DNA of 64,000 nucleotides from Octopus sinensis (taxonomy: Eukaryota). Below are positions 42,905-57,794 of the stretch, piece by piece. The DNA lies in assembly GCF_006345805.1 (NCBI RefSeq), contig NC_043000.1:9300001-9364000 (forward strand), in the 5' to 3' direction. Numbering within the stretch: the first letter of the stretch is position 1; every line of letters starts with the position of its first letter. The notes below the pieces were generated by a model. It did no database searches. It was given only the letters and a program-made list of their open reading frames with translations, and was not told the DNA's origin. The position numbers and the translations under genes are program-made.

Positions 42905-43258
42905 TATATGCCAAGAGAACGTGGCAGTCCTTTATAGGATGATGTTTTCCTGTTACTGCTGTTACAGCCCCAGGAAAACTTTTCCAGCGACTGTGTATCG
43001 CTCAGAAAATATATAGTATTTGCACGTGGAGGGAGCTTTCGTCGGTAGCTTTTGGTTAACTCACACTGAGGACAGATAACATTCAGAAACCTCGGTCTAT
43101 GAGTATCACGTAAGGCTAGAGATGGGAACGATGACCTCCTTTACAAATGCTATAAGGACACAGACTGTGTCGAAAGCCAGCTGGAAAAGATATTTTCCTG
43201 GGGCCATAACAAGGGTAACATCGTCCTATATAGGACTTCCTCGTTCTGCGGGCATATA
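42905..43258 (+). mobile_element. self-complementary (rod-like) non-coding element of about 354 nt with a central HHR
   Basis: 42905-42988 pairs with 43180-43258 and 43013-43058 pairs with 43114-43154; HHR at 43059-43104. Confidence 0.75.
43059..43104 (+). ncRNA. minimal type I hammerhead ribozyme
   Basis: actcaca-CTGAGGA-cagataacattca-GAAA-cctcgg-TC-tatgagt. Stem I pairs 6 of 7, stem II is weak, and GUC cleavage falls after 43097. Confidence 0.75.
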
Positions 43259-43423
43259 AACATTGATATCCGCTACTGTTACTGTAGATCTGTTGCTCAG
43301 AGATTTAAAACAAGTGGTTTGTATATATATTATATATATTTATTTATATATACATATATATATATATATATATATATATAGATATATATATATACAAACA
43401 CACACACACACACATACATATAG

Positions 43424-43628
43424 CGCCCCGGGCGAAATGCTTAGCGGTATTTCGTCTGACATTACGTTCTGAGTTCAAATTCCGCCGAGGTAGACTTTGC
43501 CTTTCATCCTTTCGGGGTCGATAAATGAAGTACCAGTTTCGCACTGGGGTCGATGTAATCGACTTAATCCATTTGTCTGTCCTTGTTTGTCCCCTATATA
43601 TTTAGCCTCTTGTGGGTAGTAAAGAAAT
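43424..43628 (+). mobile_element. SINE family B with Tx1-like tail
   Basis: Matches 37071-37303. Confidence 0.85.
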
Positions 43629-43699
43629 ATATATATATATATATATAAAGACAGCACTAGAAAGATCTAGGGAAAAAAATGGTATTTACCTTACTCAGA

Positions 43700-43897
43700 A
43701 ACGTGGGCTGGGGAAGTTTAGGCTATTATGCCAGCTCAGAAACCGGTCCAGGTGAGTCCAAATACTTGAATGTATGCTGAAATATTGTCTTAGCCCGTTC
43801 GCCTTTGGACGGTTGATTTCTGTAGTTGTTATCAGTGTATTTTGGTGATTTAACCAAAAAAATAGTTTTGATGGTTATTTCCCGCAGATAGACATAG
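43700..43897 (+). mobile_element. partial copy of the 482-nt HHR element, with mutated HHR 43701-43754
   Basis: Matches 45421-45612; the core reads CTGGGGA..GAAA-ccgg-TC. Confidence 0.75.
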
Positions 43898-43900
43898 CTG

Positions 43901-44067
43901 ATAATGATGATGATGATGATGATGATGATGATGATGATGATGATGATGATGATGATGGTGGTGATGATGATAATGATGATGATGATGGTGATGATGATGA
44001 TGATAATGATGATGATGATGATGATGATGATGATGATGGTGATGATGATGATGATGATGATGATGGT
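43901..44067. repeat. (GAT)n microsatellite
   Basis: Direct inspection. Confidence 0.95.
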
Positions 44068-44209
44068 AAAAGTGATGCTCAAAAGAAGATTAATAAAAAA
44101 AAAGCTTGCTAAGATATTTTTGTAAACTCTGATAGTCGCTCTGTTACTGTTGCTAATTATACTGTGTTAATCTTTCACGGAGCATTTTCTTTTATCATTA
44201 TCTTTATCT

Positions 44210-44655
44210 TTCACTTGTTTCAGTTATTGGACTGCCGCCCAAGCTGGGGCACTGCCTCGAAGGGTTTTAGTCGAACATATCGATCTCAATACTTGCGTTG
44301 TTATTTTTTTAAGTTTAGCACTTATTCTATTGGTACCTTTTGCCAAACCGCTAGATTACGGAGACGGTAAACAAACCAACACAGGTTATCAAGTTGTTGG
44401 CGTGTGGGGTGAGGTGACAAGCACACACATGGACGTATGTTCCAGCATGGCCGCAACCTTAGGTCTGAAACGTGTAAAAGAGTAGAATAATAATAACAGG
44501 CGTAGCTGTGTAGTAAGAAGCTTGCTTCCCAACCACATGGTTCTAAGATCAGTCCCACTGCGTGGCACCTTGGGCAAGTATTTTCTACTACAGCCTCGGG
44601 CCGACCAAAGCCTTGTCAGTGAATATGGTACACGGAAACTGAAAGAAGCCTGTCA
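44210..44655. mobile_element. SINE family A fragments in both orientations
   Basis: 3' half on the minus strand 44210-44420, tail on the plus strand about 44440-44485, head on the plus strand 44497-44655. Confidence 0.75.
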
Positions 44656-44700
44656 TATTTATATAATTTCAATAGGGATCAAATAATTCACTAAAAAATG

Positions 44701-54500: not shown

Positions 54501-55473
54501 AAAGAGGTGGTGGTGGTGGTGGTTGTCGCCGTCATCGTTGTCTTTGTCGTAATCTAGAAGATGACACTTGTGATGTCGGTGTTAAAAGAATGTAGCGATA
54601 GTGGGAGTGGCACTGATGACGACGAAAATGGTGATGATTATATCATAATCAAGCGCGTGTTATTATTGGAATACAATTAAGAATTTTAGAAATCTATTTA
54701 CCGGTTTGCCTGCATATGCGAATGCATGTGTTCTTGCGCAAATGTCAGTCTGCATGTGCATATCTGTATATGTGTGTGTATATGCATGCATGAATGTGCA
54801 TCTGTAAGATGTGTGTATGGTTACAGACATGTTTTCTTTTTTGCACTCAGAAAAGTCAATACACAAAGTGCAATCAAGATCGATAAATAAATTCAAATTA
54901 TTTATCGTCGTTCAATCATAACAGTTCGTTGGTAAAACTTTAAGCTGTTTCTGGATACATGGAGTTACGCAAAAATATATTCATTTCGCTCTCATAGACG
55001 CATTTCTCACTCTCTTTCTTTTTGTCTGTCTCTCTCTCTCTCTCTCTCTCTCTCTCTCTGTTCTTCTCCATGTGTGTATGTGTGTGCATGCATGCACACA
55101 CACACACACACATACATACATGCATACATACATACATACATACATACATACATAAATACATACATACATACATACATATATATATATATATGTATATATG
55201 TATATATATATATATATACATATATATATATATGAAAGGCCGGCCGGCAGAATCGTTAGCACGCCGGGCAAAATGCTTGGCGATATTTCGTCCGTCTTTA
55301 CGTTCTGAGTTTTAAATTCCGCTGATGTCATCTTAACCTTTCATGTTGAGCGCTGGGTTCGATATAATCGACTTACCCCATCCCCCGATCTTCCTGGCCT
55401 TGTGCCAATCCGTATTAAGTGATAAGCAGCTCATATCTTCCCAACCGTTGAAATTTCAACCACTGCTTCTAAA

Positions 55474-55676
55474 CAGTAATCACTCGCCATATCGCGGTTC
55501 ACCTAACGCGCACTCAGTACATCGCGATTTTTCTGGCTAATATATGTAAATTTATATCGCGGGTTCCTCAGTATATCCGGGTCTCTGCGTTGATAGGTAT
55601 TTATCTTTTTTTAGGATTTAATTATTTCTGTGAGAGGTTTTGGATCGTAATAACCGCGATAGTCGAGGGATTACTG
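55474..55676. mobile_element. Tigger/pogo-like MITE
   Basis: TIR cagtaatcactcgccatatcgcggtt / aaccgcgatagtcgagggattactg-TA. Confidence 0.75.
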
Positions 55677-56370
55677 TATTTGAAAAACAAAGCCGAATCC
55701 GGTAGTATAATATCGGCAAACTTCCATCGATATTAGCGAACTTATTAATAAGGAAATACTTTCGTTATCAAACATTTTCGTTCTTTGAATATTTTCCTAA
55801 TTAAATAAATTTACCTTTAAATATAAACATATGTACTGAAGCGTTGGTTGTTTATATTCATATTGTAGCGATGAATATATTCAAACATACATATTTTTAA
55901 AAAATCTATACGCAGAACAGAAAATCAATAGATATTAAAATAAACTTTTTTTTATAATAAAAATAAATGAATTTTCTTTTCTTAATTTTAAAACAGCAAA
56001 ACAGTGATATACATAAAGAATGAGAAACATGTTTGTTACATTTAGGAATAAGAATGTTTTGAAATTCTCAACTAATTCTTATGCATCATCGCATCATTTC
56101 CTCTCAGATTCTTTTATGTAACTATTAATTAGTTCTTCTGAGATACCCTACATTGGCTTTGAGTTTATCTTGTTGGTATGTAATCGAAAGGACTCAATAT
56201 ATTTACTGAGTATGCATGAAGATCAGTCGTGATTGGCGATCTTGCTATTGCAGTTCATAAAACGTTGGTGAAATGCGTGCGACACCTACATGTGTGTGTC
56301 TGTGTTTGCGTGTGTGTGTATATATATATATATATATATATATATGTGCGTGTGTGTGTGTGTATGTGTG

Positions 56371-56631
56371 TGGAGGCGCAATGGCCCAGTGGTTAGGGCA
56401 GCGGATTCGCGGTCGTAGGATCGCAGTTTCGATTCCCAGACCGGGCGTTGTGTGTGTTTATTGAGCGAAAACACCTAAAGCTCCACGAGGCTCCGGCAGG
56501 GATGGGTGGCGATCCCTGCTGACTCTTTCGCCAGCGGGGTTGCCTCATTTGAAGGCTAAAACAATGCGAAGTGCATTGTGACCAGCGATGTGTTGCAACA
56601 TCTGATAGCCTGGTCGGTCACGGTGACGGTG
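56371..56631 (+). mobile_element. SINE with family C head and a different tail (duplicate at 58096-58357)
   Basis: tggcccagtggttag A box, tttcgattcc B box, tail gtgaccagcgatgtg..ctggtcggtcac(ggtgac)2. Confidence 0.85.
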
Positions 56632-56910
56632 ATATATATATATATTATATATATATATATATATATATATATATATATATATATATTATTAGTCAATTTA
56701 GGGTAGCAAAAAAATTCAATAGAAATTTATCGCTACCAGCGGCCTGGTGGAAAAGAGAAAATAGTCATCGACTAAATATATAAATATAACAATTTAGGAG
56801 TGACCCTAACAGGTCATTCGTCCACCAGAAAGAGCAGCCATAACTCACACCGCCAAGTAGTAGTAATTCAGAAATTAGGTGAAAATTTAAAAACATTTAC
56901 CCTAATTCAT

Positions 56911-57010
56911 CTTTTAGACGTTGCAACGTTTCTGTGTCATTAATGATTAAATTAGCTTAATTAAATTAAATTAAGCTAATCTACCATAGGTTACACTTCA
57001 TCAGTAAAAA
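56911..57010 (-). ncRNA. type I hammerhead ribozyme (duplicate at 58633-58732)
   Basis: Reverse complement of 57179-57278. Confidence 0.82.
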
Positions 57011-57178
57011 ACCTGGGAGAGACAAATATACACGAGTCGCAATAATTCTGAGATTGAATCGGCAGTTTATATTTACTGCTGATAAGTTTGGCGCGAATAC
57101 GTCAGTCTTGAAAATTTTAAGACAGATATTCCGTAGGCATCGATACAGACGCCTCGTGTATATTTGTCTCTCCCAGGT

Positions 57179-57278
57179 TTTTTACTGATGAAGTGTAACC
57201 TATGGTAGATTAGCTTAATTTAATTTAATTAAGCTAATTTAATCATTAATGACACAGAAACGTTGCAACGTCTAAAAG
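57179..57278 (+). ncRNA. type I hammerhead ribozyme with long stem II (duplicate at 58901-59000)
   Basis: ttttta-CTGATGA-agtgt..tagattagcttaatt/aattaagctaattta..acaca-GAAA-cgttgcaacg-TC-taaaag. Stem III is the palindrome ACGTTGCAACGT; cleavage falls after 57272. Confidence 0.82.
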
Positions 57279-57751
57279 ATGAATTAGGTAAATGTTTTTA
57301 AATTTTCACCTAATTTCTGAATTACTACTACTTGGCGGTGTGAGTTATGGCTGCTCTTTCTGGTGGACGAATGACCTGTTAGGGTCACTCCTAAATTGTT
57401 ATATATATATATATATATATATTATATATATATATATATATGTATATATATATATATATGTATGTGTGTGTGTGTGTGTGTGTGTGTGTGTGGTGTGTGT
57501 GTGTGTGTGTGTGTGTGTGTGTGTCAGTACTTCATATATCCGAAAAGAAGCACACTCTAAAAACATAATATTTAAAAGGTTATTAATAGTTATCGACGAG
57601 CTAACATGGCAGTCCAGAAAAATAGGACGAATGCTGCCGTTGATTAGCTCCAAGAGGCCATCGCCTCTAGCTAGCTATGTGACACACGAACTTGTGTCCA
57701 TTATAACCTTCGAACAGGGGAGGTCAGCCGCTTCCCCTTGCCGGTCTGGCA

Positions 57752-57794
57752 TCTACAGACTAGTTTCAGGGTATTTGCCCCTTATCAATGTAGA
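57752..57794 (-). ncRNA. type I hammerhead ribozyme, U3-A8 core variant (duplicate at 59476-59518)
   Basis: Minus strand tctaca-TTGATAA-gggg-caaata-ccct-GAAA-ctag-TC-tgtaga. Stem I is a perfect 6 bp, stem II is 4 bp, stem III is the palindrome ACTAGT; the duplicate has GUA. Confidence 0.82.

What the first reader, a model, noticed from the sequence alone, without database searches (positions are those of the whole stretch)
43059..57794. Two divergent relatives conserve the ribozyme and downstream hairpins by compensatory change
The reverse complement of 43059-43258 and 57596-57794 share ordered blocks: GG(A/C)AGTCC..TAGGACGA, AGCT.GCT..GACACA..TGTGTCC.TTATA, GGAGGTCA..CG.TTCCC, then the HHR in the same position and sense. 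Within the HHR, stem I (actcaca/tatgagt vs tctaca/tgtaga), stem III (ACCTCGGT vs ACTAGT) and the core (CTGAGGA vs TTGATAA) all differ but stay paired. C3-G8 to U3-A8 preserves the known tertiary pair. This is the best internal evidence of selection for cleavage. The two conserved hairpins 3' of the cut may be the RT-recognition signal (inference).
Basis: partly seen in the sequence, partly recalled or inferred. Interest (0 to 1): 0.82.

Follow-up and report, generated by a model that had tools for sequence, protein, structure and literature searches.

The report
Hammerhead retrozyme family with conserved hairpins
The two stretches are old, diverged copies of a very abundant short repeat (about 350 bases per unit, no protein) that carries a predicted self-cutting hammerhead RNA and a folded region behind it, and that is likely copied around the genome by Penelope-like jumping genes; this is a known kind of element, seen here in unusually many subfamilies.

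Summary
The homology is real (local score 104.5 against at most 63.5 in 2000 shuffles). Both copies belong to a high-copy, non-coding repeat superfamily of this genome: at least 13 subfamilies, tandem units of 346-362 bases, one type I hammerhead per unit. Insertions show Penelope-like hallmarks: fixed 3' end 164-177 bases behind the cut, optional ~55-base tail, inverted or tandem 5' pieces, (TA)n targets. This is a non-LTR retrozyme, a known kind. Across 41 copies 93.7% of cells pair; all six stem I pairs covary. Window copy A is decayed. U3-A8 is a single branch event and is already published for Schistosoma. Forty of 55 copies run past the cut, so reverse transcription starts internally on a circle or an uncut multimer. 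No autonomous element sharing the hairpins was found, so 'RT-recognition signal' stays an inference. Cleavage is untested; two subfamilies spread with non-canonical cores (U4C; U3 with G8). RNA reads showed no pile-up at the cut.

The parts
42899..42988 (-). Inverted partial copy of the 3' part of element A, head to head with the main copy (PLE-type 5' inversion)
   Evidence: 75% identical to 43180-43264; covariance model hit
42985..43269 (+). Element A, main body: spacer, hammerhead, hairpin region, up to the main 3' end
   Evidence: 80-86% to 39 other places scored; 1892 candidates; model score 173 bits
43059..43104 (+). Type I hammerhead of A (core CTGAGGA 43066-43072, GAAA 43086-43089, predicted cut 43097/43098); decayed copy with mismatches in stems I, II and the stem III palindrome
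43124..43140 (+). Hairpin H1 of A (G-run / C-run, partly decayed)
   Evidence: not in the counted structure
43157..43171 (+). Hairpin H2 of A (GACACA/TGTGTC)
43174..43206 (+). Hairpin H3 of A: 5-bp outer stem, 4x3 internal loop, 6-bp inner stem; the covarying hairpin
43223..43236 (+). Hairpin H4 of A (GTCC/GGAC)
43237..43254 (+). Hairpin H5 of A (decayed in this copy), just before the main 3' end
43270..43314 (+). Optional tail of A, followed by a (TA)n run at 43322-43394
57581..57811 (-). Element B (subfamily B1), 5'-truncated monomer without tail
   Evidence: 90-97% to other copies; 2574 candidates; 187 bits
57751..57795 (-). Type I hammerhead of B (core TTGATAA 57788-57782, loop II CAAATA, palindrome ACTAGT, predicted cut 57758/57757)
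57717..57737 (-). Hairpin H1 of B
57681..57698 (-). Hairpin H2 of B, stem identical to A
57645..57677 (-). Hairpin H3 of B, five compensatory pairs against A
57594..57628 (-). Hairpins H4 (57612-57628) and H5 (57594-57611) of B
59305..59535 (-). Second copy of B inside the 1.72-kb tandem duplication (56291-58037 / 58011-59759, 98%); cut triplet ends in A instead of C

Best explanation
The two stretches are copies of two subfamilies of a non-coding repeat with 346-362-base tandem units and one hammerhead motif per unit, likely a non-LTR retrozyme that is mobilised in trans by a Penelope-like element. Shown: family structure, unit size, lack of an ORF, covarying fold, fixed 3' ends, tails, inversions, (TA)n neighbours. 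Inferred cycle: a tandem copy is transcribed; two hammerheads pair through their palindromic stem III and cut (predicted); monomers are circularised or the multimer is used uncut; a PLE protein binds the folded region H1-H5 (inferred), nicks (TA)n-rich DNA and starts reverse transcription at one of two fixed internal sites, 164-177 bases behind the cut or about 55 bases further; it reads back through the ribozyme junction and stops at variable points, often with an inverted piece. Neptune-type elements are the likeliest driver (inferred). Odds: retrozyme of PLE type about 0.9; hammerhead cleaves in vivo in young subfamilies about 0.7; hairpin region is the protein-recognition signal about 0.5.
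For: Copies: 1892, 2574 and 2552 candidates for three subfamilies; 2336 exact hits of the H3 motif against 0 for the control. Units 346-362 in 8 of 10 loci checked, no shared open frame; L166 is two tandem dimers head to head between (TA)n runs. Of 75 loci, 29 have an inverted and 17 a tandem piece upstream. Tail or no tail and (TA)n neighbours: (TA)n follows 16 of 32 A, 14 of 29 B1, 11 of 23 D copies. These are the PLE hallmarks described in PMC8557442 and the two internal start sites of PMC11167929. Fold: 93.7% of cells paired against 81.4% in shuffles and 24-48% in slid registers; 22 of 38 pairs change on both sides (4 of 500 shuffles). Inner H3 stem, unconstrained by the pattern: 171 of 180 cells pair in 30 loci. 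Downstream stems by subfamily: 202 Watson-Crick, 11 G-U, 0 A-C, 7 other of 220, which points to the ribozyme strand as RNA. 40 of 55 copies extend more than 10 bases 5' past the cut, 4 of 55 end within 10 bases of it. Mussel retrozymes have 350-390-base units (PMC7229834). Neptune-like elements here end on (TA)n and carry a TTGATAA core with a CATG palindrome, as B subfamilies do.
Against: No autonomous element sharing the hairpin region or the tail: the model found only separate insertions in 95 PLE loci; the PLE ends seen have 50-120 AT-rich bases behind their ribozyme. Downstream helices alone give weaker statistics on the measure that resists relatedness (8 of 21 pairs, 33 of 500 shuffles); H2 hardly covaries; subfamily D lacks H4. 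Folding z-scores of the region are modest and do not favour a strand. Subfamily D has U4C (CCGATGA in 20 of 23) and subfamily G has U3 with G8 (two insertion sites). RNA reads from a related organism were few (334-399 per 11-13 million), in both orientations, mostly running into flanks, with no pile-up of ends. Rfam has no match. In print, hammerhead mutants did not affect insertion in vitro (PMC11167929) and only 1 of 9 frog retrozyme dimers cleaved (bioRxiv 10.64898/2026.07.22.740005).
Confidence: 0.75

Rival explanations
1. Same element, but the hairpin region serves the RNA itself (circle folding, ligase or host protein binding, stability) or is an internal promoter, and the PLE protein recognises only the last bases or the tail.
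For: No hairpin is shared with any sampled autonomous PLE end. H2 and the H3 internal loop are conserved in sequence, which a DNA promoter element would also give.
Against: G-U but no A-C changes and inner-stem covariation argue for RNA structure, not a DNA motif. The region lies exactly between cut and fixed start, as the binding region of the anole element does (PMC11167929).
Confidence: 0.3
2. The hammerhead fold is kept but cutting is weak or dispensable; the template is the uncut tandem transcript and no circle is made.
For: Copies read through the cut site; no end pile-up in RNA reads; D and G spread with non-canonical cores; in vitro data of PMC11167929.
Against: Core, GAAA, cut triplet and palindrome are kept across about 30% divergence, with a 3-8 double change; mussel, coral and axolotl retrozymes give circles (PMC7229834). 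The RNA runs are of another organism and ordinary cDNA libraries.
Confidence: 0.3
3. They are only 5'-truncated ends (pseudo-LTR stubs) of an autonomous PLE that was not found.
For: Frog retrozymes match PLE pseudo-LTRs in 24 of 57 families (bioRxiv 2026); only the best candidates of each genome search are scored.
Against: The unit closes on itself after 346-362 bases with no ORF in several subfamilies; PLE protein hits upstream of copies were scattered, in either orientation, or split by the insertion.
Confidence: 0.07
4. A DNA-level element (MITE, Helitron-like or satellite) whose palindromes act as DNA hairpins.
For: Many short palindromes; folding energy is similar on both strands.
Against: Variable 5' truncation with fixed 3' ends, a hammerhead on one strand, strand-biased wobble pairs, no terminal inverted repeats other than the variable inversions.
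Confidence: 0.03

Closest known systems
Metazoan non-LTR retrozymes (Cervera and de la Pena 2020, PMC7229834; mussel units 350-390 bp)
   Same: Type I hammerhead in each short non-coding unit, tandem copies, thousands of loci, same unit size as in mussel.
   Different: Here most copies are dispersed truncated monomers or short inverted/tandem insertions; abundant circles not shown; a conserved five-hairpin region is not described in the sections read.
Frog retrozymes as non-autonomous PLE derivatives (Li, Clavereau, Pollet, bioRxiv 10.64898/2026.07.22.740005)
   Same: Monomers, dimers and multimers; co-occurrence with PLEs.
   Different: There 24 of 57 families matched known elements, mostly PLE pseudo-LTRs; here no matching autonomous end was found in the loci sampled.
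Penelope-like elements (Neptune, Poseidon, Hydra; PMC8557442, PMC11167929)
   Same: Partial tandems, inverted 5' piece, optional tail, two fixed 3' ends behind an internal hammerhead, microsatellite targets.
   Different: No RT/GIY-YIG ORF; tail about 55 rather than 30-40 bases; region behind the cut is non-coding.
Schistosoma PLE minimal hammerheads with U3-A8 (PMC4209133)
   Same: U3-A8 core covariation, palindromic stem III, pairs of motifs on opposite strands 100-700 bp apart.
   Different: Here stem I has 5-6 pairs plus a distal helix and stem II 3-4 pairs, the canonical metazoan shape, not the long-stem-II minimal form.

Membership tests
Non-LTR retrozyme | Type I hammerhead motif in each unit | tested here: met
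   Core, GAAA, NUH triplet, stems I-III in all subfamilies; note that Rfam models gave no match
Non-LTR retrozyme | [quoted passage not shown] | tested here: met
   Units 346-362; consecutive units in L166, L176, L199. The window copies themselves are monomers.
Non-LTR retrozyme | No protein coding | tested here: met
   No frame free of stops across subfamilies on either strand
Non-LTR retrozyme | Low G+C (under 45%) | tested here: inconclusive
   Modelled part 43% (A) and 48% (B); whole unit with its AT-rich spacer not computed
Non-LTR retrozyme | Self-cleavage of the transcript | not testable with these tools
   Needs in vitro transcription
Non-LTR retrozyme | Abundant circular RNA | tested here: inconclusive
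   Three RNA runs of a related organism: about 30 reads per million, both orientations, no end pile-up; library type cannot show circles
Penelope-like element (autonomous) | RT plus GIY-YIG ORF | tested here: not met
   No ORF in the unit
PLE-mobilised element | Partial tandems, inverted 5' copy, optional tail, microsatellite target | tested here: met
   29 of 75 inverted, 17 of 75 tandem; tails and (TA)n
PLE-mobilised element | 3' sequence shared with an autonomous PLE of the genome | tested here: not met
   HMM and covariance model over 95-100 PLE loci from three searches found only separate insertions; not a whole-genome screen
Minimal PLE hammerhead (min-HHR) | Stem II of 7-8 bp, stem I of 4-5 bp | tested here: not met
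   Stem II 3-4 bp, stem I 5-6 bp plus distal helix

The most novel reading that the evidence does not exclude
The H2-H3 module is a structural recognition element for a Neptune-type reverse transcriptase that these retrozymes mimic in shape without sharing sequence with the autonomous element, and the ribozyme is protein-assisted or dispensable, which lets subfamilies with U4C or U3-G8 cores spread. The dozen subfamilies would then be a natural mutational scan of what a PLE reverse transcriptase needs to start internally.
Probability: 0.15. Interest if true: 0.7.

Novelty: new member of a known kind. Interest (0 to 1): 0.4.

Why it matters
How retrozymes are recognised and copied is open: PLEs are only a proposed driver. 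This superfamily shows the PLE insertion signature directly on a retrozyme (two fixed 3' ends, tail, inversion, read-through of the cut) and delimits a 164-177-base folded region with natural covariation, which gives ready constructs for a binding and initiation assay. It also offers natural core variants (U3-A8, U4C, U3-G8) in spreading subfamilies. The element class, the U3-A8 change and the palindromic stem III are already known.

Tried and rejected
Rfam: whole window gave only microsatellite-driven sub-threshold matches; narrow scans none. blastn word 7 does not link A and B; the aligner with shuffles does. Open antisense frame over B: rejected, other subfamilies have stops in all frames. 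Window PLE (9499-11862) as partner: its ribozyme and 3' end differ. Neptune-like families as sequence donors: no shared hairpins; closeness of copies to PLE remnants (L063, L065, L071, L115, L160, L258) read as separate insertions. Pfam had no match for the window PLE protein. Pile-up of 5' ends at the cut: 4 of 55, about the 2-3 expected from even truncation (sample includes 20 loci chosen for stem variety, and extension can be inflated by inverted pieces). Sequencing runs: no RNA holder listed on record; three raw RNA runs came in by species label. H1 and H4 were left out of the pair counts because the alignment put them out of register; they were read by eye. Fourteen duplicate or unassigned rows were skipped before clustering or grouping. 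Paper searches: octopus+Penelope+hammerhead (4 listed), retrozyme+octopus (2), cephalopod+hammerhead ribozyme (2), a five-term search on recognition stem-loops (2), C3U+G8A (0), retrozyme+tail+microsatellite (3) showed no description of this family in the listings; subscription journals, Repbase/Dfam and supplements were not seen. Earlier findings of the scan: none.
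Full report
Observation. The two stretches are homologous. A local alignment scores 104.5 against a shuffle mean of 39.1 and a maximum of 63.5 in 2000; the part outside the ribozyme carries the signal (0 of 2000), the ribozyme part alone does not (130 of 2000). A motif scan finds a type I hammerhead on the + strand at 43059-43104 (A) and on the - strand at 57795-57751 (B), plus a near-identical B copy inside a 1.72-kb duplication. 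Rfam has no match at either place, so the ribozyme call rests on core, triplet and covariation.

Both are members of large families. Genome searches gave 1892 candidates for A (scored copies 76-85% to the window copy) and 2574 for B (90-97%). A pattern built on one hairpin matched 2336 places, its control none; a second pattern 933 and none. A further subfamily, D, met by chance, gave 2552 candidates. Clustering 127 full-length copies gave 13 groups, to which one search added at least one more. Four unselected insertion sites in 383,752 bases of PLE loci suggest tens of thousands of insertions; this is rough. The genome has 2.72 billion bases; that the host is an octopus is my inference from recalled repeat motifs and size.

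Anatomy. The unit runs ribozyme, five hairpins (H1-H5), main 3' end, tail of about 55 bases, spacer, next ribozyme. Tandem spacing is 346-362. No frame is open across subfamilies. The main 3' end lies 164-177 bases behind the predicted cut in five subfamilies. Copies stop either there or at the tail end, often on (TA)n. Of 75 loci, 29 have an inverted and 17 a tandem piece upstream; L166 holds two dimers head to head between (TA)n runs. Window copy A shows inversion (42899-42988), tail (43270-43314) and (TA)n; copy B is a truncated monomer without tail. These features match what PMC8557442 (passages) gives for PLE insertions, and the two ends match the two internal RT start sites of PMC11167929 (main text).

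Fold. On 41 natural copies, 38 named pairs are paired in 93.7% of cells, against 81.4% in shuffles and 24-48% in slid registers; 22 pairs change on both sides (4 of 500 shuffles). All six stem I pairs and all five distal pairs covary. For the downstream helices alone (H2, H3, H5) the result is weaker: 8 of 21 pairs, 33 of 500 shuffles. H3 is the covarying one: its inner stem, left free in the pattern, pairs in 171 of 180 cells in 30 loci, and in the 30 loci of the independent H2-based pattern 19 fold to the two-stem shape by my reading. By subfamily, downstream pairs are 202 Watson-Crick, 11 G-U, no A-C, 7 other; the G-U cells come from about five events, so the strand argument is modest. Folding z-scores do not favour a strand.

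Between the two window copies H2 is identical in 6 of 6 pairs and H4 keeps GTCC/GGAC; H4 does vary with compensation in other subfamilies by eye and is absent in D. Copy A is decayed; only 6 of 32 A copies pass an intactness test against 17 of 29 B1 and 20 of 23 D. U3-A8 marks all four B subfamilies, one event, and about 1300 such motifs were reported in Schistosoma (PMC4209133, results and discussion read). Neptune-like ends in this genome also carry a TTGATAA core. D has U4C in 20 of 23 copies, and G has U3 with G8 at two sites. That these changes lower activity is recalled knowledge, not tested.

Mechanism. Forty of 55 copies extend more than 10 bases 5' past the cut and only 4 end near it. 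A cut linear monomer begins at the cut, so the template must be a ligated circle or an uncut multimer, with an internal start (inference). The short palindromic stem III suggests cleavage as a dimer (PMC4209133; PMC6765202 passages). The folded region lies between cut and start, where the anole element has its binding region, so recognition by the PLE protein is the likeliest role; it is not shown. I looked for the driver in three protein searches: intact Neptune-like ORFs and the window's own PLE family exist, both end near (TA)n, but neither an HMM nor a covariance model found the hairpin region in their ends. RNA reads of a related organism cover the unit at about 30 per million in both orientations, mostly running into flanks, with no pile-up of ends: the family exists there, and nothing is shown on cleavage or circles.

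Comparison. It meets the sequence-level definition of non-LTR retrozymes (PMC7229834, passages and sections 14 and 17; mussel units 350-390). A 2026 preprint (parts 1-3 of 5 read, supplements closed) argues that such elements are non-autonomous PLE derivatives and saw cleavage in 1 of 9 dimers. Six paper searches listed no description of this family; repeat libraries were not available. The dimer-cleavage paper of Lunse and colleagues was seen only as a reference.

Verdict. Real, well supported, and a new member of a known kind. The part worth following is the covarying H2-H3 region between cut and fixed start, and the spreading subfamilies with non-canonical cores. Interest 0.4.

Noticed in passing
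window 8781-12707: A PLE with a 787-codon open frame (9499-11862, RT and C-terminal GIY-YIG motifs by eye, no Pfam match), inverted pseudo-LTR 8781-9159 / 12172-12550, a long-stem-II hammerhead near 12420-12495 and a tail of about 155 bases; young multi-copy family. Possibly Hydra clade (recalled, untested).
   Followed up: partly
window 56773-57415 and 58496-59137: A different hammerhead repeat, inserted as an inverted pair, with a long AT-rich stem II and palindrome CGTTGCAACG.
   Followed up: no
window 44701-45640: Another inverted repeat with hammerhead-like cores and a CCGG palindrome at 45015 (-) and 45428 (+).
   Followed up: no
window 56291-59759: 1.72-kb tandem duplication, 98% identical; recent duplication or assembly artefact.
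   Followed up: no
window 12703-13205, 16367-16885, 35097-35462, 46512-46773, 63529-63674: Further self-inverted stretches, perhaps PLE-type inversions; no hammerhead found by the simple scan.
   Followed up: partly
L115, L185-L203 (subfamily D): Young subfamily (2.7% from column majority) with U4C core, longer stem III palindrome and no H4.
   Followed up: partly
L251-L253, L257-L258 (subfamily G): Core TTGACGA (U3 with G8) and a GUU triplet at two insertion sites.
   Followed up: no
L138, L157-L163: Neptune-like 3' regions hold tandem repeats with CCAAT-, CRE- and TATA-like motifs (labels recalled), then a U3-A8 minimal hammerhead.
   Followed up: no
L124-L129: Young Neptune-like family with an intact 782-codon RT/EN frame and an upstream frame.
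   Followed up: partly
L079, L080: Copies with internal deletions inside the ribozyme, between the 5' core and the cut.
   Followed up: no
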